Shown piece after piece: positions 17,824 through 51,144 of a stretch of 64,000 bases of DNA. The notes under the pieces were generated by a model. It was not told the origin of the DNA. It made no database searches and saw only the letters and a program-made list of their open reading frames with translations. Each line of letters opens with the position of its first letter. Within the stretch, counting starts at the first letter, position 1. The position numbers and the translations under genes were made by a program. The DNA is from a virus (taxonomy: Duplodnaviria; Heunggongvirae; Uroviricota; Caudoviricetes). The stretch is taken from IMG/VR virus record IMGVR_UViG_3300038492_000258, positions 108,995 to 172,994 of that record, one strand, 5' to 3'.

Positions 17824-17900
17824 GGCTCTGGGGCCCGTGAGGACGGGCAGTGGCCTCTAAAACCACTTTGTAGCGGGTTCGACTCCCGTCAGGGCCTCCA
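17824..17900 (+). tRNA. candidate amber-suppressor tRNA (anticodon CUA)
   Basis: Acceptor GGCTCTG/CAGGGCC (7 bp with one G.U), D arm GCCC-GTGAGGAC-GGGC, anticodon arm GTGGC-CUCUAAA-ACCAC with C.A at 31-39 (alternatively perfect 5-bp stem with 9-nt loop, CUA still central), T arm GCGGG-TTCGACT-CCCGT, ends TCCA. Confidence 0.45.
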
Positions 17901-26904: not shown

Positions 26905-27003
26905 GTAGAATGAGTCTACGGCAGTTCGACTCTGTAAGTGGCAACAGCTAGGCGAATAGGTTGGGGTTGATCGCCCCTCCCGGTTCGAATCCGGGCATTC
27001 TAC
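26905..27003 (+). ncRNA. 99-nt tRNA-like element with 8-9 bp terminal stem
   Basis: GTAGAATG/CATTCTAC terminal helix, T arm CCCGG-TTCGAAT-CCGGG, class-II-like D region GTC-TACGGCAGTTC-GAC, two extra hairpins (CTGT-AAGTGGCA-ACAG; GGGG-TTGATCG-CCCC); no canonical anticodon loop. Confidence 0.3.
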
Positions 27004-27048
27004 TTAGTACATTAATTAATAAAACTGAAAAAAAAGAAAGAATTAAAA

Positions 27049-27756
27049 ATGAAGAATCAGTGAAGAGGAAACGACACCGGAATCGTTGTCGAAATCCAGG
27101 CCGGTGAAGGTGGAGACGATTCAAAACTATTTGTTGACGACTTATTTTCTGCATACTTAAAATATGCGGAGACTAATAATGCCAAGACAGAACTAGTCTA
27201 TAAGTCGCACGGCAAAGTGGGCTTTAAAGTATTGGGAAATAAGGCTGCCAAGTTATTTAAACACGAAACCGGCAAGCATGTAGTGCAACGGTGTCCGCCA
27301 ACAGAGAATAAGGGAAGGCGGCATACCAGCACTATTACTGTTTCTATTCTTCCTATTCTTAGCTCATCTTCTTTTACTCTGAAAGAGCAAGATATTGAGA
27401 CAAAAACCCAACGTGGCCATGGGCCTGGTGGACAACACCAGAATACAACCGATTCAGCCGTCCGTATGGTTCATAAACCCACGGATACAGTTGTTTTCAT
27501 CAATGGGCGAGATCAGCATTCCAATAAGCGTTTAGCACGTCAAATTCTGGAAGCTAGAGTGGCCGAGAAAATCCGAGGCCGCCAAAACCGTGAACGATCT
27601 GAAAATAAACGAGAACAGGTTGACGGTGGCGGCCGAGGCAACAAAACTCGAACATACAATTTCCTTGACAGTCGAGTTGTAGACCATATACTTGGTACTC
27701 GCACGAGCAAGATCAAACAGGTCATGAAGGGCCGATTCGATTTACTCTGGAAATAA
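27049..27756 (+). CDS. class-I release factor homolog (RF1-like PxT-type) lacking domain 1, with in-frame UGA at codon 5
   Basis: After TGA at 27061 the frame encodes EIQAGEGGDDSKLFVDDLFSAYLKYAE...VVQRCPPTENKGRRHTS...GHGPGGQHQNTTDSAVRMVHKPT...RTYNF (RF domains 2-4: PPT tripeptide region, RHTS, GGQ); ATG 27049 is 4 codons upstream in frame; the ORF track only reports the part from GTG 27217. Confidence 0.55.
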
Positions 27757-34911: not shown

Positions 34912-35616
34912 ATGTGGTTACGCCTTCTAGTCTATATTTCAGTACTTTTTTACTTGGTTGAGCTGACCCTTGGGGCAGCGAACAGTCTAGAAGGTAATCC
35001 GTTCTTTCTGTGGACAGAACGGATGATTGCCACAGTATTTACTTGCGAATATGTCGTCCGTCTCAAGAGGGGCGGACGACAGTACGCACGATCTGGTCTC
35101 GGTATTGTAGATGCTATTGCCGTGATCCCATTTTGGGCTGGCTTTTTTGTGCCAGCCGCTTGGCTTGGTCCTGTGCGGGCCATGCGTATTCTGCGACTAC
35201 TTAAGTTATTCAGATATAATCCATCTTTACAACTAGTCGCAAGAGGCTTTAAACGTGCTTGGCCAATGTGTAGAGCACTATCAATAGCAACACTGATTTT
35301 CTGGCTATTCTCGTCCGTTGTGATCTTTGAGCTGGAAAAGACTGCACAACCAGATGACTTCACGCTTTATCAAAGTTTCTGGTTTACAGCCGTCACGATG
35401 ACGACAGTAGGGTATGGTGATATGTCTCCCCAGACTCCACCTGGGCAAGCATTCTCTATGGGGATGTTCATCGTGGCCCTGGCTTTGTATTCTGGAGTGC
35501 TTGGAACTATTGCGACAGCTCTATCAGAGGAAGTAAAAGATACTAATGAGCGATCTACTAGTGAATGTGGTACAAGTGAACGAAGTCAAACCCCATCCGA
35601 ATGCGGATCGGCTTGA
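34912..35616 (+). CDS. voltage-gated-type potassium channel
   Basis: Selectivity filter TMTTVGYGDM; S4-like RAMRILRLLKLFR with Arg every third residue; 5-6 TM helices. Confidence 0.7.
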   Translation: MWLRLLVYISVLFYLVELTLGAANSLEGNPFFLWTERMIATVFTCEYVVRLKRGGRQYARSGLGIVDAIAVIPFWAGFFVPAAWLGPVRAMRILRLLKLFRYNPSLQLVARGFKRAWPMCRALSIATLIFWLFSSVVIFELEKTAQPDDFTLYQSFWFTAVTMTTVGYGDMSPQTPPGQAFSMGMFIVALALYSGVLGTIATALSEEVKDTNERSTSECGTSERSQTPSECGSA

Positions 35617-36631
35617 ACTTGTTTGTATCGACGGCTGGGAAATTATTTCAGGCAAGGGTAACTATTCTGCGGGCGATACCGTAGTACATGTTCCACCCGA
35701 CGCTATGGTGCCAATGGCACGAGCCCAAGGATGGGGTGTAGACAAATACCTGTCCTTCCGTGGACAAGCCGAAATGGGCCGAGTCAAGGCCCAGAAACTA
35801 CGTGGCGTAGTTAGCTTCGGCTTCCTGGTTCCTAACGATACACAATCGGAGGTCGGCACCGACCTACGCGAACATTATGGCATCGAAAAATACGAACCAC
35901 CGGCACCTGGGATGGACGCTGGTAGAGTGCGTCATTGTCATCCTTTGTTTCATCGGTATACTAACATCCAAAATCTTCGAAACCATACTAGGAAACTCGA
36001 TTACGAACAAGAATTAATTGTAACCGAGAAAATTCACGGTACGAATAGTCGTGTTGGATGGGTTCGGCGTCTAGATCCCGCCGAAGGCGAGTCTGAATTC
36101 GAAAAGGTTGTAGGAACCCACAATACTCAACGGAAGTTGGAAGAGTGTGGTATTTACGGACTGCCTTTTGAATTGTACGATGACCAATTGGAACACATAT
36201 TTCTTGAGGCACAAAAATACTGCCCGCCTGGTGAGCAACTAAATTCTCTAATTATTTTTGGTGAAATCTACGGTGCTGGCGTTCAAGACCTTCATTACGG
36301 TAAAAAAGAACAAAAGGGATATCGTGTTTTCGACATTACCCTGAACGGTCGATACATTCCGTGGAAGACTATGGCCGCTTTGTGCGACGTTTATCGAGTA
36401 CCTACCGTAGAAGTTCTAGAACGTGGCTACTTTGGTTTCGATGACCTAAAGGCACTTGCCGAAGGCAATACTCTACACGACGATTCGCATATTCGTGAAG
36501 GAATTGTGGTGCGTCCGTTCGACCAAGAACTAACCTGGGGTCGCACAGAACGCGTCAACGACCGTCGCATGATTTTCAAACTAATTAATCCAGATTACTT
36601 GCTTCGCAAGGGTGGATCGGAGTATCACTGA
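35546..36631 (+). CDS. RNA ligase, Rnl2 family
   Basis: Nucleotidyltransferase motif I EKIHGTN as in T4 Rnl2; 361 aa. Confidence 0.55.
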   Translation: MSDLLVNVVQVNEVKPHPNADRLELVCIDGWEIISGKGNYSAGDTVVHVPPDAMVPMARAQGWGVDKYLSFRGQAEMGRVKAQKLRGVVSFGFLVPNDTQSEVGTDLREHYGIEKYEPPAPGMDAGRVRHCHPLFHRYTNIQNLRNHTRKLDYEQELIVTEKIHGTNSRVGWVRRLDPAEGESEFEKVVGTHNTQRKLEECGIYGLPFELYDDQLEHIFLEAQKYCPPGEQLNSLIIFGEIYGAGVQDLHYGKKEQKGYRVFDITLNGRYIPWKTMAALCDVYRVPTVEVLERGYFGFDDLKALAEGNTLHDDSHIREGIVVRPFDQELTWGRTERVNDRRMIFKLINPDYLLRKGGSEYH

Positions 36632-43806: not shown

Positions 43807-43880
43807 AGGTCGTTAGTGTAGTGGTAACACAACAGATTCCAAATCTGTATACCGGGGTTCGATTCCTCGGCGGCCTGCCA
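43807..43880 (+). tRNA. tRNA-Trp (anticodon CCA), CCA encoded
   Basis: Anticodon arm ACAGA-TTCCAAA-TCTGT, T arm CGGGG-TTCGATT-CCTCG; separated from tRNA-Val by 1 nt. Confidence 0.65.
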
Positions 43881-47299: not shown

Positions 47300-47606
47300 C
47301 CTGTCGGCTAAGAAAAGTCTTTGTTATACTTGCAAGCATGGTTTGTGTATTGCACAACAAATGCACGCACAGGTGCTCGGGGAAATTACAGAACAAGAAG
47401 TCGAGAGTGAAGACCTCTTAGATATTCCGTGGGACGACGGAACCGAACCGGCTTCGGAGATTCCGCACGGAATGCAGCATCTTCAGATGGACAGAGTGTG
47501 CTCGCTGTGTTACTATAACCCGCCGGGTCGCACTGATCCCCCCACTATCAATGCTGCCGTTATCACGGATTGCAACCGATATGAACGAGACGATTCTATC
47601 CAATAA
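47278..47606 (+). CDS. hypothetical Cys-rich protein
   Basis: About 109 aa, CYTCKHGLC. Confidence 0.3.
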
Positions 47607-48888
47607 ACACATTGATCTATGTACGGGACTCCGAGATGTTGGGGCGACTCCCTACATTGTCGGTGGTTGTGTACGTGATATGTTGTTAGGGCGTCGTCCC
47701 AAAGATATCGACATTGTTGTTGTCGGTATTGACGAGAACGATTTAATCGACAGAATGGATGCCGCTGGATGGAACATCAAGTGTGTCGGTGCAGCATTTC
47801 CTGTATATCTAATTAATGATATCGAAGTGGCCTTGGCTCGTAAAGAACACAAGGTCGCGGAAGGGCATCGTGGTTTCGAATGCGACACTGCAAATATTAC
47901 GCTGGAAGAAGATCTCTTCCGTCGTGACCTGACTATTAATGCTATTGCAATGGACCCATTTAGTGGAGACATTATCGATCCATACAATGGCGTACAACAC
48001 ATTAAGGGACAAATTCTAAACCCTGTTAGTCAACATTTTGCAGAGGACCCGCTACGTGTCCTGCGGGCGGCACGTTTCGCTGCACAACTAGATTTCAATA
48101 GTACAGATGAACTAAAACTGGCGGCAGCCAATGTTCTCCCTGAATTAATTGATCTATCCGGTGAACGTGTATTTGGAGAACTACTAAAAGCTCTCCGTAG
48201 TGATCGTCCTAGTAAATTCATTACAGTATTGGATGAACTTGGTGCCCTGGAAATTGTATTCCCTGAGATCTACAATCTCAAAGGGCGTGTTCAACCAGAG
48301 AAATATCATCCCGAGGGTGATGCATACGTACATACATTACTTGTTCTAGATCGCTGCCGTGCTCTCGGGGGTGACGATGAAACAATGTATGCAGCCTTAT
48401 TACATGATTTAGGTAAGGCGGTCACCCCCGACGACAATTTACCTCACCATTATGATCACGAGCGTCTCGGCGTTCCTCTTGTGAGGACCTTATCCGAACG
48501 CATTAAGGCTCCCACAAGCTTTCGCAAAACTGCTGAAACTGCTTCGCGGGAACATCTTAACGTGCATCGTTTTGATACAATGAAACCGATTAAGAAGGTG
48601 AGAATGATTGTGAGGCTCGGGGCCTTACAAAATGATCTACTATTGCGTAGGGTGGCTCTCGCCTCACAGGCTGACGCTCAGGGACGTGGTCCTGATTTTA
48701 TTGATGCCCCTTATCCAAGCAGAATCAATCTGATTAAGGCGGCTGAAGTTGCTCGCAGTGTAAGGGGTCATGAGTTTGCCCACCTAAAGAACGGGCGAGT
48801 TATTGCACAGAAAATGGAGGCCGCTAGAGCTAAGGCTTTAGAGGCCGCAGGATTCCGTAAGGTAGGAAATAGTTATGGTAACAATTAA
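47551..48888 (+). CDS. cca: tRNA nucleotidyltransferase (CCA-adding enzyme) with HD domain
   Basis: Head-domain motif GGCVRDMLLGRRPKDIDIVV, C-terminal HD (HHYDHERLG). Confidence 0.75.
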   Translation: MLPLSRIATDMNETILSNKHIDLCTGLRDVGATPYIVGGCVRDMLLGRRPKDIDIVVVGIDENDLIDRMDAAGWNIKCVGAAFPVYLINDIEVALARKEHKVAEGHRGFECDTANITLEEDLFRRDLTINAIAMDPFSGDIIDPYNGVQHIKGQILNPVSQHFAEDPLRVLRAARFAAQLDFNSTDELKLAAANVLPELIDLSGERVFGELLKALRSDRPSKFITVLDELGALEIVFPEIYNLKGRVQPEKYHPEGDAYVHTLLVLDRCRALGGDDETMYAALLHDLGKAVTPDDNLPHHYDHERLGVPLVRTLSERIKAPTSFRKTAETASREHLNVHRFDTMKPIKKVRMIVRLGALQNDLLLRRVALASQADAQGRGPDFIDAPYPSRINLIKAAEVARSVRGHEFAHLKNGRVIAQKMEAARAKALEAAGFRKVGNSYGNN

Positions 48889-49549: not shown

Positions 49550-50074
49550 TTGGATTGTCCAACCCTATTCAACAGGAGGAATTGTATGAGTGCATTAACA
49601 CAATCGCAAATTGATACTCTGGCCGAAGGCTGGAAACTGAAGGTAGCGGGCCAAGCTCAGTATGAATATCATCGTATGAGCGAAATCGCTAAGTTAATCT
49701 CGGAGGAAAATTGGGATGAGGTAAAGGTCCAGTTAACATTTGGTAAAGATAAGTACGTGGTTCATACGCTTGCTTTGGATATCTTTTATCTAATGTTACA
49801 AAGTGCTCTGGGCAGACGAGTTCCCGAGGAGGAGGCTGTCGGTGACTTATCTGAGCAGGATATGCTTTTCCTGGAAAACAAATATAACGAATTTGCTCCC
49901 ACGGTACCTGTTATTATCGCCAATCTTGAATCTCTTTTGACCTTCTTAAACTCGGGCAATACTGGCCCGGAGTTTATTTTACTATTTGACACTACTAAGT
50001 TGCTAACGCACGAGCTGTTTGTGAAAGAGCAAGCATGGACTCACCACTTCCAGGCGTTAGCTTATGAGCAATGA
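49550..50074 (+). CDS. hypothetical protein
   Basis: 174-aa ORF. Confidence 0.4.
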   Translation: MDCPTLFNRRNCMSALTQSQIDTLAEGWKLKVAGQAQYEYHRMSEIAKLISEENWDEVKVQLTFGKDKYVVHTLALDIFYLMLQSALGRRVPEEEAVGDLSEQDMLFLENKYNEFAPTVPVIIANLESLLTFLNSGNTGPEFILLFDTTKLLTHELFVKEQAWTHHFQALAYEQ

Positions 50075-51144
50075 AAGACAGTCTACTTTTAAATAAAATT
50101 TGGAAAGAGGTGGAGGCTGGCAATGTGTCCGCCAGCCGCACCGACAACCTTACTATATTCAAATATACTCAGGATTGTCATATTCAGGGTAATTGGAATG
50201 ACGTTAATCGTCAGTGTCGAGGAATCATATTCCGCGATGACGGCACCGTTGTAGCTAGACCCTTTTCTAAATTTTTCAATTTAAATGAGCTTCCTGAAAC
50301 TGAGCCTCGAAATCTCCCATGGCGTGAGGGGATAGAGGTATACGAAAAGCTCGATGGTAGCTGTGGCACGGGGTATCGTAAAGAAACGTGGGATGCTGGT
50401 ATTGGTACACATACGAAATGGTTTATAGCAACGCCAGGCAGCATGGAATCAGACCAGGCTGTCGAGGGTACTGCCATGCTTGGTATGTACAATCTAGAAT
50501 TCATGCCACAAAACTGTACACCAGTATTCGAGATTATCTATCCTGATAATAGAATTGTCGTAGATTATAACGGTTTTCGTGGATTGGTATTGTTAGCTAT
50601 CTTCGATCACAACGGAGAAGAGTGGCATCCACGTCGTGTAGACAGTATTGCTGAAGTTTGTGGTTTCCGCAGACCAAAAGTATATGACATCGATATTCGT
50701 GGAGAGATTCCTTTTGAGGATAACGCTGAAGGCTATGTCGCAAGATTTGGTTGTGGCACGCGTGTGAAAATCAAAAGCCCAGCTTACCTCAGGATTCATA
50801 GATTGTTGGATCGTCTCTCGCCCAAAGGAGTTATCGAACTAATGCAGGGCAGAGAATACGGTATGACTGTGCGTCAATTACCTGACTCTATCGCCAAGGA
50901 TTTCGACGATATCCGTGCTCATGTCCAGGGAGTCTTTAACTCTGTTCTTACAGAAGTTGGCGAGAAATATCGTGACATGATGGAGACCGTTGGTCAACAT
51001 GCGAATCGAAAAGCCTATGCTATGTGGATTGCGGAGAACGCACCGCAAGAACTTGCTGGCTTTGTTTTTGCTATGATGGATGGCAAAGATTTCGATCATA
51101 AGATTTGGAAGCTAGTATTAGAGAAAGTTACCAATGGTTCATAA
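50071..51144 (+). CDS. RNA ligase 1 (T4 RnlA-like tRNA repair ligase)
   Basis: CRGIIFRDDG, RPFSKFFNLNELPE and motif I EKLDGS (Lys at about residue 99) parallel T4 Rnl1 CRGIMFEMDG, RPMEKFFNLNENPF, KEDGS; similar length. Confidence 0.8.
   Translation: MKDSLLLNKIWKEVEAGNVSASRTDNLTIFKYTQDCHIQGNWNDVNRQCRGIIFRDDGTVVARPFSKFFNLNELPETEPRNLPWREGIEVYEKLDGSCGTGYRKETWDAGIGTHTKWFIATPGSMESDQAVEGTAMLGMYNLEFMPQNCTPVFEIIYPDNRIVVDYNGFRGLVLLAIFDHNGEEWHPRRVDSIAEVCGFRRPKVYDIDIRGEIPFEDNAEGYVARFGCGTRVKIKSPAYLRIHRLLDRLSPKGVIELMQGREYGMTVRQLPDSIAKDFDDIRAHVQGVFNSVLTEVGEKYRDMMETVGQHANRKAYAMWIAENAPQELAGFVFAMMDGKDFDHKIWKLVLEKVTNGS

What the first reader, a model, noticed from the sequence alone, without database searches (positions are those of the whole stretch)
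27049..27756. Domain-1-less RF1-like release factor gene with in-frame UGA at codon 5
The reading frame between the TGA at 27061 and the annotated GTG at 27217 encodes a clearly conserved RF domain-2 segment (EIQAGEGGDD...YLKYAE). It is followed by the codon-recognition region VVQRCPPTENKGRRHTS (PxT-like, i.e. RF1-type, recognising UAA/UAG but not UGA), then GGQ and domain 4. The in-frame ATG lies 4 codons upstream of the TGA (M-K-N-Q-stop). Cellular prfB is autoregulated through an in-frame UGA. Here a phage RF1-like factor, unable to terminate at UGA, carries a UGA that must be read through, and the canonical N-terminal domain 1 (RF3 and L7/L12 interaction) is missing entirely. This suggests a phage device to bias termination (favouring UAA/UAG, disfavouring UGA) or an autoregulatory sensor of host RF2 activity.
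Basis: partly seen in the sequence, partly recalled or inferred. Interest (0 to 1): 0.75.

Follow-up and report, generated by a model that had tools for sequence, protein, structure and literature searches.

The report
Phage release factor gated by UGA
A large phage encodes a shortened RF1-type translation termination factor whose own synthesis apparently requires the ribosome to read through a UGA stop codon five codons into the message. Most relatives are gated in a similar way, by prfB-like frameshift sites. I found no report of such gating for RF1-type genes in the literature I could search.

Summary
ATG 27049 opens a 4-codon leader (MKNQ) that ends in an in-frame TGA (27061). The same frame then runs 230 codons to TAA 27756 and encodes RF1 domains 2-4: a PPT loop aligned to PxT, GGQ, and a model with TM 0.88 to ribosome-bound RF1. 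Domain 1 is absent, and tRNA genes lie upstream. There is no ATG, GTG or TTG between the TGA and GTG 27217. That GTG is the database start, and it is not conserved.

Comparison is decisive. Among 93 non-redundant relatives from large-phage contigs:
- 9 share the in-frame arrangement. The stop is always TGA, it is followed by AGA-G or AGG-G in 8 of 9, the leaders carry a ribosome-binding site plus ATG, and the leader peptides are unrelated.
- 61 instead carry prfB-like +1 frameshift cassettes (CTT-TGA/TAG/TAA, mostly followed by C, often with GGAGG three bases upstream), some apparently in tandem.
- 20 start plainly with ATG, and 3 fit none of these classes.

The best reading is that synthesis of the factor depends on failure to terminate at the leader UGA. 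That would mean near-cognate readthrough competing with host RF2, which sets a low level of the factor or senses termination capacity. Re-initiation at a non-AUG codon or a suppressor tRNA cannot be excluded. The searched literature states that such arrangements are unknown for RF1 genes.

The parts
27049..27063 (+). Leader mini-ORF ATG AAG AAT CAG TGA (M-K-N-Q-stop)
   Evidence: Equivalent ATG leaders of 3-22 codons occur in 8 relatives, most preceded by a recognisable SD, with unrelated peptide sequences.
27061..27069 (+). In-frame UGA with its conserved 3' context, TGA AGA GGA
   Evidence: The stop is TGA in 9 of 9 in-frame relatives. It is followed by AGA-G in 7, AGG-G in 1 and CTG in 1. 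AGA makes up only 15% of Arg codons in window ORFs, and none of the genuine TGA stops in the ORF set is followed by AGA.
27064..27756 (+). Coding sequence of the domain-1-less RF1-type factor (230 codons plus TAA)
   Evidence: Pfam PCRF and RF-1. NCBIfam RF1 best hit at 230 bits, matched from model position 103. PDB RF1 alignment. Structure model with TM 0.88 to ribosome-bound RF1.
27103..27114 (+). GEGG, aligned to GTGG in T. thermophilus RF1; by my recollection this is the tip of helix alpha5, which contacts the first stop-codon base
   Evidence: Alignment. Invariant in 23 homologues.
27295..27303 (+). PPT tripeptide in the codon-recognition loop (the PxT position of RF1)
   Evidence: Aligned to PVT of T. 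thermophilus RF1 within QRxPxTE...HTS. QR[CVIY]PPTE is conserved across the family.
27427..27435 (+). GGQ catalytic motif
   Evidence: Invariant in alignments A1 and A3.
27217..27219 (+). GTG used as the start by the database gene call; probably an internal Val codon
   Evidence: It is the first ATG/GTG/TTG after the TGA. The aligned residue is V, I or A in relatives (GKV/GKI/GKA), and the 52 codons upstream match the PCRF profile.
26477..26896 (+). tRNA-Thr, tRNA-Asp and tRNA-Phe immediately upstream (genomic context: tRNA island)
   Evidence: Homologous RF genes sit inside tRNA arrays in many loci. A promoter-like site at 26323-26350 lies upstream of the array.

Best explanation
The gene encodes a functional, compact class-I release factor of RF1 type: domains 2, 3 and 4 with a PxT-type loop and GGQ, and no domain 1. 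It is carried in the tRNA and translation island of a large phage.

Translation starts at ATG 27049, and a stop codon is reached after four codons. The factor is made only by those ribosomes that do not terminate at UGA 27061 and instead insert an amino acid, most likely Trp from a near-cognate tRNA, and continue in frame. Because the product is RF1-type, the UGA is expected to be read only by host RF2. Output should therefore rise when RF2 activity per ribosome falls and stay low otherwise. The leader acts as a throttle and as a sensor of termination capacity.

What is shown: the protein family and its missing domain, the in-frame UGA, the absence of a canonical start after it, and the conservation of the arrangement and of the UGA-AGA-G context. 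What is inferred: readthrough as the mechanism, the decoding tRNA, competition with RF2, and the physiological role.
For: (1) Coding signal begins right after the TGA. The PCRF profile matches from residue 4. In WIN, L018, L022 and L025 the codons after the TGA vary only synonymously (AGA; GGA/GGT; AAC/AAT).

(2) Nine non-redundant loci have an ATG leader in frame with the stop, with no ATG, GTG or TTG before the conserved EIxxGEGG block; most of these ATGs are preceded by a recognisable SD.

(3) The stop is TGA in 9 of 9, although TGA is only 51% of stops in the window. It is followed by AGA-G or AGG-G in 8 of 9.

(4) The leader peptides are unrelated and vary in length: MKNQ, MSK, MKDNKE, MNMKHSAGGSS and others. 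Only the start, the frame and the stop are kept.

(5) The spacing between the AGAGG and the next in-frame AUH codon varies from about 3 to 13 nt, whereas the distance from TGA to AGAGG is always 0. This favours a stop-codon context effect over an SD-plus-start arrangement.

(6) In a rough NJ tree the in-frame type sits at five or more places among frameshift-type relatives.

(7) Sixty-one relatives have prfB-like +1 cassettes in the leader or at codon ~30: CTT-TGA, CTT-TAG or CTT-TAA, +4 C in 41 of the 60 CTT sites tabulated, and an SD-like G-rich core (at least 4 nt, such as GGAGG or GGGGG) within -16 to -3 of CTT in about half. Passing a stop codon is therefore the family's normal route to expression.

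(8) TGA is a real stop in this phage, in 38 of 74 ORFs and in many ATGA overlaps, so this is gene-specific recoding and not an alternative genetic code.
Against: There is no experimental evidence. No conserved or unusually stable RNA structure lies downstream of the UGA, so the only candidate stimulator is the primary context. I know of no bacterial precedent for AGA-G as a readthrough context.

The leader's ribosome-binding site in the window is weak (GAAAG). UGA followed by A is also an ordinary stop context in this window (13 of 38 TGA stops).

An RF1-type product gated by an RF2-specific codon is not a closed autoregulatory loop, so the selective logic is unclear. Initiation or re-initiation at an AUC, AUA or AUU codon just downstream would give almost the same protein and cannot be excluded from sequence alone.
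Confidence: 0.6

Rival explanations
1. The leader is a coupling ORF. Ribosomes terminate normally at the UGA and then re-initiate, or initiate independently using the AGAGG as a Shine-Dalgarno sequence, at a non-canonical codon a few codons downstream (ATC 27082 or 27094). The factor would then start inside the GIVVEIQ segment and the UGA would never be decoded.
For: A purine-rich SD-like sequence (GAAGAGG) directly follows the stop in 8 of 9 loci. In-frame AUH codons lie about 3-13 nt downstream of it, 7 nt in L018. Members with a plain start begin only 3-4 residues before the EIQ block. Efficiencies of a few percent are expected either way.
Against: SD-to-AUH spacing is not conserved (about 3 to 13 nt; 13 nt in the window), while TGA-to-AGAGG spacing is fixed. 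Re-initiation would not require the leader to be in frame, nor the stop to be TGA in 9 of 9 loci. Codons directly after the TGA (R-G-N) show synonymous-only variation. The sister clades demonstrably carry ribosomes across a stop by frameshifting.
Confidence: 0.2
2. The UGA is decoded by a dedicated suppressor tRNA (anticodon UCA, or an altered tRNA-Trp) encoded elsewhere in the phage genome. RF synthesis would then be switched on as part of a timed change in stop-codon decoding, as proposed for the tRNA-Sup/TrpRS/RF1 module of TGA-recoded Jade phages.
For: RF1 genes accompany UGA suppressor tRNAs in TGA-recoded phages (bioRxiv 10.1101/2021.08.26.457843). This phage already carries a suppressor-type tRNA, though with anticodon CUA (17824-17900). 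Its tRNA-Trp has a U11-A24 pair like the E. coli Hirsh UGA suppressor (the comparison is from memory). Only part of the genome was seen.
Against: ARAGORN called no tRNA with a UCA anticodon among the 28 tRNAs of the window, in about 8 kb beyond its right end, or in the flanks of 41 related loci. One tRNA-like element next to the gene went uncalled. TGA is the commonest stop in the window, and there is no sign of in-frame TGA in other genes.
Confidence: 0.13
3. The gene is a decaying or truncated copy. Only the 179-residue product from GTG 27217 is made, or none, and the upstream frame is a relic.
For: Gene callers annotate it this way. A promoter-like site lies inside the ORF at 27134-27163.
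Against: The upstream 52 codons are intact and match the PCRF profile with invariant GEGG and DSK. The GTG codon is not conserved, being V, I or A in relatives, and has no SD. A 179-residue product would lack the GEGG segment that aligns to GTGG of RF1 and the domain-2 strands around it. The same arrangement recurs in 8 other lineages.
Confidence: 0.04
4. UGA encodes selenocysteine, or the host reads UGA as Trp or Gly (genetic code 4 or 25).
For: In-frame UGA. An odd tRNA-like element with a long acceptor stem and an extra arm lies just upstream.
Against: No conserved hairpin follows the UGA. The element has no UCA anticodon and is not recognised as a tRNA. TGA ends 38 of 74 ORFs in the window.
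Confidence: 0.02

Closest known systems
Autoregulatory +1 programmed frameshift of bacterial prfB (RF2): SD-like, 3 nt, CUU UGA C
   Same: [quoted passage not shown] Relatives of this gene carry cassettes of the same design: GGAGG or GGGGG, 3 nt, CTT-T-stop, C.
   Different: In the window there is no frame change; the UGA is in frame. The product is RF1-type, so a UGA gate is read by host RF2 and not by the product. Relatives use UAG at 22 of the 60 sites tabulated. UAG is never seen in prfB motifs, and no frameshifting is known for prfA (PMC12421855). The sites lie in a mini-leader or inside domain 2, not in domain 1, which is absent.
Mimivirus/Megavirus class-I release factor (one frameshift plus one readthrough)
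   Same: A virus-encoded release factor whose synthesis needs recoding at internal stop codons, read as strong buffering of its level (PMC3521657).
   Different: That factor is of eukaryotic/archaeal eRF1 type in a virus of amoebae. This one is of bacterial RF1 type, lacks domain 1, and is in phages. Here readthrough and frameshifting are alternatives in different family members, and some have apparently tandem frameshift cassettes.
Plant eRF1 autoregulation by stop-codon readthrough
   Same: In-frame stop readthrough couples release-factor level to termination efficiency (PMC5397192; title and abstract only).
   Different: That circuit is eukaryotic, involves NMD, and the stop is recognised by the product itself.
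PrfH (RF-H), the domain-1-less RF homologue paired with RtcB2
   Same: A bacterial-type class-I RF homologue that lacks domain 1 (PMC1586002; preprint 10.1101/2025.01.09.632186).
   Different: The phage protein scores 82 bits against the PrfH model (cutoff 167) but 230 against RF1. It keeps the RF1 QRxPxTE...HTS recognition elements, and its immediate neighbours are tRNA genes and a pyrimidine-dimer glycosylase (Pyr_excise), not RtcB.
RF1/RF2 genes of stop-codon-recoded phages (Jade, Lak, Agate, crAss-like)
   Same: Phage-borne bacterial-type release factors located near tRNA genes and proposed to reshape termination during infection.
   Different: In the version of that survey I searched, the RF gene module is described as encoded in standard code, and the word 'frameshift' does not occur. 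The window shows no genome-wide recoding.

Membership tests
Bacterial RF1 (prfA; TIGR00019 / NF001859) | PCRF and RF-1 domains (domains 2-4) | tested here: met
   PF03462 E 3e-25 and PF00472 E 4e-24. Model TM 0.88 to ribosome-bound RF1.
Bacterial RF1 (prfA; TIGR00019 / NF001859) | PxT tripeptide in the recognition loop, with the flanking Q and HTS residues | tested here: met
   QRCPPTENKGRRHTS aligns to QRVPVTETQGRIHTS of T. thermophilus RF1.
Bacterial RF1 (prfA; TIGR00019 / NF001859) | GGQ motif | tested here: met
   GPGGQ at residues 120-124.
Bacterial RF1 (prfA; TIGR00019 / NF001859) | N-terminal domain 1 (about 100 residues) | tested here: not met
   HMM matches start at model position 103-110. 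tRNA genes lie upstream.
Bacterial RF1 (prfA; TIGR00019 / NF001859) | Score above the curated equivalog cutoff | tested here: not met
   230 bits against a cutoff of 400, and 221 against 423.
Bacterial RF1 (prfA; TIGR00019 / NF001859) | Peptide release at UAA and UAG but not UGA | not testable with these tools
   Inferred only from the PxT-type loop.
PrfH (TIGR03072) | Score above the cutoff; altered recognition loop; adjacent RtcB | tested here: not met
   81.6 bits against a cutoff of 166.65. The RF1-type loop is retained. The immediate neighbours are tRNA genes and a Pyr_excise gene.
ArfB / ICT1-type rescue factors | GGQ domain with a C-terminal tail and no codon-recognition domain | tested here: not met
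   28 bits against a cutoff of 100, covering the GGQ stretch only. Domain 2/4 is present.
prfB-type +1 programmed frameshift | CUU-U-stop shift site with the coding sequence continuing in the +1 frame | tested here: not met
   In the window the frame is unchanged across the TGA and there is no CTT. The feature is met in 61 relatives.
prfB-type +1 programmed frameshift | The stop codon at the site is one recognised by the gene's own product | tested here: not met
   UGA paired with an RF1-type loop. Relatives use TGA 34, TAG 22 and TAA 4 times.
Programmed stop-codon readthrough | An in-frame stop between a real start and conserved coding sequence, with no alternative canonical start | tested here: met
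Programmed stop-codon readthrough | Stop identity and context conserved across diverged homologues | tested here: met
   TGA in 9 of 9; AGA-G or AGG-G follows in 8 of 9.
Programmed stop-codon readthrough | Downstream stimulatory RNA structure | tested here: not met
   The consensus fold is weak (-9.6 kcal/mol), and z-scores are about 0 for 7 of 8 sequences, with L018 at -2.0. Such a structure is not obligatory for bacterial readthrough.
Programmed stop-codon readthrough | A readthrough product demonstrated | not testable with these tools
   Requires mass spectrometry or reporter assays.

The most novel reading that the evidence does not exclude
Large phages carry a dedicated, domain-1-less RF1-type factor whose mRNA leader measures termination capacity. 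UGA-AGA-G would be a previously unrecognised bacterial readthrough signal read against host RF2. The CUU-UAG, CUU-UGA and CUU-UAA cassettes of relatives, some in tandem as AND gates, would read RF1 and/or RF2 activity. The phage would then produce its own terminator only when host termination fails. This would be the first recoding-controlled RF1-type genes, and the in-frame-stop design that was predicted for release factors before their genes were sequenced but not found in them.
Probability: 0.35. Interest if true: 0.9.

Novelty: new variant of a known kind. Interest (0 to 1): 0.8.

Why it matters
Recoding-controlled expression of release factors is a textbook case. In bacteria it is known only for RF2 and only as a +1 frameshift at UGA.

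A major review states that an early in-frame UGA read through to make the factor was once expected for RF2 but has not been found in sequenced RF2 genes. It adds that the UAG/RF1 counterpart is also unknown (PMC5009743). A 2025 survey of 12,753 genomes found no programmed frameshift in prfA and never found TAG in the prfB motif (PMC12421855).

This phage family appears to contain both missing designs, plus apparent tandem cassettes, in a factor that has dispensed with domain 1. If real, it offers four things:
- Natural, compact sensors of RF1 and RF2 activity.
- A candidate bacterial readthrough context (UGA-AGA-G).
- A minimal release factor that, lacking domain 1, may act independently of RF3.
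- A concrete handle on why large phages carry their own termination machinery next to tRNA arrays and suppressor tRNAs.

It also shows that these genes are systematically mis-annotated as N-terminally truncated proteins or in the wrong frame.

Tried and rejected
- **Close relatives among deposited phages.** Megablast and blastn of the locus and of a 6.6-kb neighbouring stretch found nothing. Only tblastn found relatives, the best being LR756511.1 at 54% identity.
- **Genome-wide recoding.** Rejected. Standard code gives a dense gene map. TGA ends 38 of 74 ORFs, TAG ends 14, and the few long open stretches split by a single stop lie opposite genes on the other strand.
- **A frameshift in the window.** The -1 frame has a GTG overlapping the TGA, but it ends at TGA 27105 and would skip the conserved IVVEIQAG block. 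There is no CTT-T-stop site.
- **Selenocysteine or a stimulatory hairpin.** RNAalifold on 4 orthologues gave -9.6 kcal/mol with essentially no covariation. Single-sequence folds gave z-scores near 0 for 7 of 8 sequences.
- **The tRNA-like element at 26905-27008 as a UGA suppressor.** ARAGORN with relaxed and intron settings, its tmRNA mode, and Rfam at E up to 10 do not call it. It contains no UCA.
- **Suppressor tRNAs near homologues, or beyond the window's right end.** ARAGORN called none.
- **More examples of the window's clade in IMG/VR.** An exact-pattern scan found nothing. The profile-based scan found one further in-frame example, L092.
- **Literature.** Six full-text searches found no report of frameshifting or readthrough in phage or RF1-type release-factor genes.
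- **PrfH and ArfB membership.** Rejected on scores.

Full report
**1. What is in the sequence**

On the + strand, ATG 27049 is followed by AAG AAT CAG and TGA (27061-27063). The same frame then stays open for 230 codons to TAA 27754-27756. The first ATG, GTG or TTG after the TGA is GTG 27217. The public gene call (JGI; P0001, 179 aa) starts there.

The 52 codons skipped by that annotation are unmistakably coding. Pfam PCRF matches residues 4-93 of the post-TGA protein (profile positions 99-194 of 194), and RF-1 matches residues 103-208.

NCBIfam gives RF1 230 and 221 bits, RF2 154, PrfH 82 and ArfB 28. All are below the curated cutoffs, and the RF1 match begins at model position 103-110.

Against solved structures, residues 6-225 align to T. 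thermophilus RF1 residues 106-332:
- HVVQRCPPTENKGRRHTS lies opposite HRVQRVPVTETQGRIHTS.
- GPGGQ lies opposite GPGGQ.
- AGEGG lies opposite AGTGG.

An AlphaFold model (pLDDT 88.7) superposes on ribosome-bound RF1 at TM 0.88 and 2.3 A.

The protein is therefore RF1 domains 2, 3 and 4 with an RF1-type recognition loop and an intact catalytic motif. Domain 1 is absent. Upstream lie tRNA-Thr, tRNA-Asp, tRNA-Phe and a tRNA-like element.

**2. Context**

The window carries 28 tRNA genes. It also encodes NAMPT, DNA ligase, two RNA ligases, a CCA-adding enzyme and a pyrimidine-dimer glycosylase. Methionine aminopeptidase, peptide deformylase and PhoH appear in the precomputed gene tables. This is a typical large-phage gene set.

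Standard code fits the window. TGA is the commonest stop (38 of 74 ORFs, with many ATGA overlaps), TAG ends 14 ORFs, and I found no other gene interrupted by a stop. The UGA in the release-factor gene is therefore gene-specific.

**3. Relatives**

A word-indexed search found 2,370 proteins at E of 1e-20 or better. Most are 200-250 residues long. Some of the closest had N-termini that looked like out-of-frame readings of GEGGDDSKLFVDDL. I therefore fetched DNA:
- 57 metagenome loci.
- 12 and then 80 IMG/VR loci, the latter out of 317 confirmed.
- One huge-phage record, LR756511.1.
- One contig for P0022.

Contigs reach 400-600 kb, and the gene often sits inside a tRNA array.

I classified 93 non-redundant loci in which the N-terminal GEGG block could be located:
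- **A.** 29 have a short ATG leader ending in CTT-T-stop (GTT in one, L079), a few codons before the EIxxEI...GEGG block. The release-factor frame is +1 relative to the leader.
- **C.** 32 start with a normal ATG (such as MKDILVEIQAGEGG) but change frame at an internal CTT-T-stop. In the window's nearest relatives this is TAT CTT TAG C at ...DDLFSxYL|, and the joined protein is exactly collinear with the window protein.
- **B.** 9, including the window, have the in-frame stop.
- **Plain.** 20, mostly the more distant members, have a plain ATG.
- **Other.** 3 appear to use GTG.

The 60 CTT shift sites tabulated have the design of prfB cassettes. The stop is TGA in 34, TAG in 22 and TAA in 4. 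The +4 base is C in 41. An SD-like G-rich core (such as GGAGG or GGGGG) lies within 16 nt upstream of CTT in about half. The preceding codon is mostly TGT or TAT.

Several leaders appear to hold two cassettes in series. In L027 and L028, GGGGG-TGT-CTT-TAG-C is followed by GGAGG-TTT-CTT-TGA-C. L001, L024, L030, L036, L039 and L041 show similar patterns. In some cases, such as L004, an ATG in the intermediate frame would make one shift sufficient.

**4. The in-frame type**

The nine loci are WIN, L018, L022, L025, L031, L035, L044, L056 and L092. They share the following features:
- An ATG preceded by an SD.
- 3-22 leader codons with no sequence similarity between loci.
- A stop that is always TGA.
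- AGA-G in 7 loci, AGG-G in 1 and CTG in 1 immediately after the stop.
- The conserved N-terminus a few codons further on, with no canonical start codon in between.

AGA is only 15% of Arg codons in window ORFs, and none of the genuine TGA stops in the ORF set is followed by AGA.

In the four members closest to the window, the codons right after the TGA change only synonymously (GGA/GGT, AAC/AAT), while the leaders are unalignable.

The distance from the AGAGG to the next in-frame AUH codon varies from about 3 to 13 nt, which does not fit an SD-plus-start arrangement.

In a rough NJ tree built from the part of the protein downstream of the recoding region, the in-frame type occurs at five or more separate places among frameshift-type genes. 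The window groups with type C loci L019-L021.

No conserved or unusually stable RNA structure follows the UGA.

**5. Interpretation**

The family's usual route to expression is for ribosomes that started on a short leader to escape termination at a stop codon. The window gene is the in-frame version. The most economical mechanism is near-cognate readthrough of UGA, which I recall to be the leakiest bacterial stop, in competition with RF2.

By the tripeptide rule for PxT and by the conserved Q and HTS residues, the product should not read UGA. The gate would therefore respond to host RF2, or to any UGA-decoding tRNA, and not to the product. This differs from prfB.

Relatives with CTT-TAG or CTT-TAA could be truly autoregulated. 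Those with CTT-TGA, and the tandem UAG-plus-UGA leaders, suggest sensing of general termination capacity, or simply strong throttling of a factor that may be harmful in excess.

Lacking domain 1, the factor would act without the contacts with RF3 and the L7/L12 stalk that domain 1 is understood to make. This is inferred from what I recall of RF domain functions and was not tested here.

**6. Rivals**

- *Termination followed by re-initiation at AUC or AUA* remains possible (about 0.2). It does not explain the strict in-frame TGA.
- *A phage suppressor tRNA reading UGA* is possible because only part of the genome was seen. ARAGORN called no tRNA with a UCA anticodon in the window, 8 kb beyond it, or the flanks of 41 related loci. 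The phage does carry a tRNA with anticodon CUA.
- *A truncated product from GTG 27217* is unlikely, because that codon is not conserved and the product would lack the conserved GEGG segment of domain 2.
- *Selenocysteine or a variant host code* is disfavoured.

**7. Literature**

The Atkins et al. review says that early in-frame UGA readthrough was once anticipated for RF2 but has not been found in sequenced RF2 genes. [quoted passage not shown]

The 2025 prfB survey found no programmed frameshift in prfA and no TAG in prfB motifs (PMC12421855).

The phage recoding survey reports RF1 and RF2 genes in recoded phages and does not mention recoding within them.

Mimivirus RF, which combines a frameshift with a readthrough (PMC3521657), and plant eRF1 readthrough (PMC5397192) are the nearest analogues. 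Six searches found nothing on phage RF1-type genes. The library lacks most subscription papers, so prior description cannot be excluded.

**8. Verdict**

The mechanism (readthrough) and the role (throttle or sensor) are inferred. I rate the feature a new variant of a known kind, namely recoding-gated expression of a release factor, with high interest. The main reason is that the window gene belongs to a large phage family that appears not to have been described and that uses in-frame UGA, UAG frameshifts and apparent tandem cassettes.

Noticed in passing
window 17824-17900 (+): A tRNA with anticodon CUA, which ARAGORN labels 'Pyl'. It has a normal cloverleaf, a CUCUAAA anticodon loop and discriminator U, so it looks like an amber-suppressor-type tRNA. 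The phage also encodes an RF1-type factor and uses TAG as a stop in 14 of 74 ORFs. Rfam's tRNA model did not list it at gathering score.
   Followed up: partly
window 26905-27008 (+): A tRNA-like element lies between tRNA-Phe and the RF leader. It has a long acceptor-like stem of 8-11 bp, a canonical T arm (CCCGG-TTCGAAT-CCGGG) and a GGGG/CCCC extra arm, but no recognisable D or anticodon arms. MFE is -39.6 kcal/mol with z -3.1. ARAGORN (all modes tried) and Rfam do not call it.
   Followed up: partly
window 43807-43880 (+): The phage tRNA-Trp(CCA) has a U11-A24 pair in the D stem. From memory, the E. coli Hirsh UGA suppressor differs from wild-type tRNA-Trp by exactly this pair (G24A). This could be relevant to decoding of the leader UGA. 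It has not been checked against other tRNA-Trp sequences.
   Followed up: no
L027 about 2442-2448 and 2485-2491; also L028, L001, L024, L030, L036, L039, L041: Two prfB-like cassettes lie in series in one leader, for example GGGGG-TGT-CTT-TAG-C followed by GGAGG-TTT-CTT-TGA-C. This implies two successive +1 shifts, at UAG and then at UGA, to reach the RF frame. In L004 an ATG in the intermediate frame would make one shift enough.
   Followed up: partly
L017 133-139; L019, L020, L021, L026, L029, L033, L045, L052: The window's nearest relatives have a normal ATG start but an internal TAT-CTT-TAG-C (or TAA, or TGA) at the Tyr-Leu of ...DDLFSxYL. These are the same E-site and P-site codons as the E. 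coli prfB site (TAT CTT TGA C, recalled from memory), but with the RF1-specific stop. Gene callers annotate these genes in the wrong frame or truncated.
   Followed up: yes
window 27064-27138 compared with L022 and L025: The first 25 codons after the UGA are 88% identical at the nucleotide level, and 76% at third positions, between the window and L022/L025. The rest of the gene is about 50% and 16-48%. This points either to a recombined 5' module or to nucleotide-level constraint. No stable RNA structure explains it.
   Followed up: partly
L056 1419-1685 and downstream: Here the in-frame TGA-AGA-G ends an 88-residue ORF (MKTRRNESTK...GRGRG...ENIKNS). The release factor could therefore be made as a readthrough extension of another protein, or from an internal Met 14 codons before the stop.
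   Followed up: no
L024, L098, L140, L144 (recognition loop): A few family members have SPT (QRVSPTE, QRSSPTD) in place of PPT. From memory of the tripeptide-anticodon experiments, an S-P-T hybrid broadens recognition toward all three stops. Their shift-site stops are TGA, TAG, TGA and TGA.
   Followed up: no
window 27134-27163 (+): A promoter-like site (TTGACG, 18 nt, TAAAAT; 10 of 12 matches) lies inside the RF coding sequence, upstream of GTG 27217. It is a consensus match only. A stronger one (11 of 12, with an extended-10 TG) sits at 26323-26350, upstream of the tRNA cluster.
   Followed up: no
window 35546-36631, 47551-48888, 50071-51144, 58733-60767: The window encodes a set of RNA-repair and translation-related genes: two RNA ligases, a CCA-adding enzyme with an HD domain, methionine aminopeptidase, peptide deformylase and PhoH. 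Together with 28 tRNAs and the release factor, they form an extended translation and tRNA-maintenance island.
   Followed up: partly
L096 (IMG/VR contig from the same sample, 3300039208; 177.6 kb): A second large phage in the same sample encodes a homologue with 51% identity. It is gated by a leader frameshift (ATG AAA ACA AAC AGG AGA TGT CTT TGA G) and not by an in-frame UGA.
   Followed up: no
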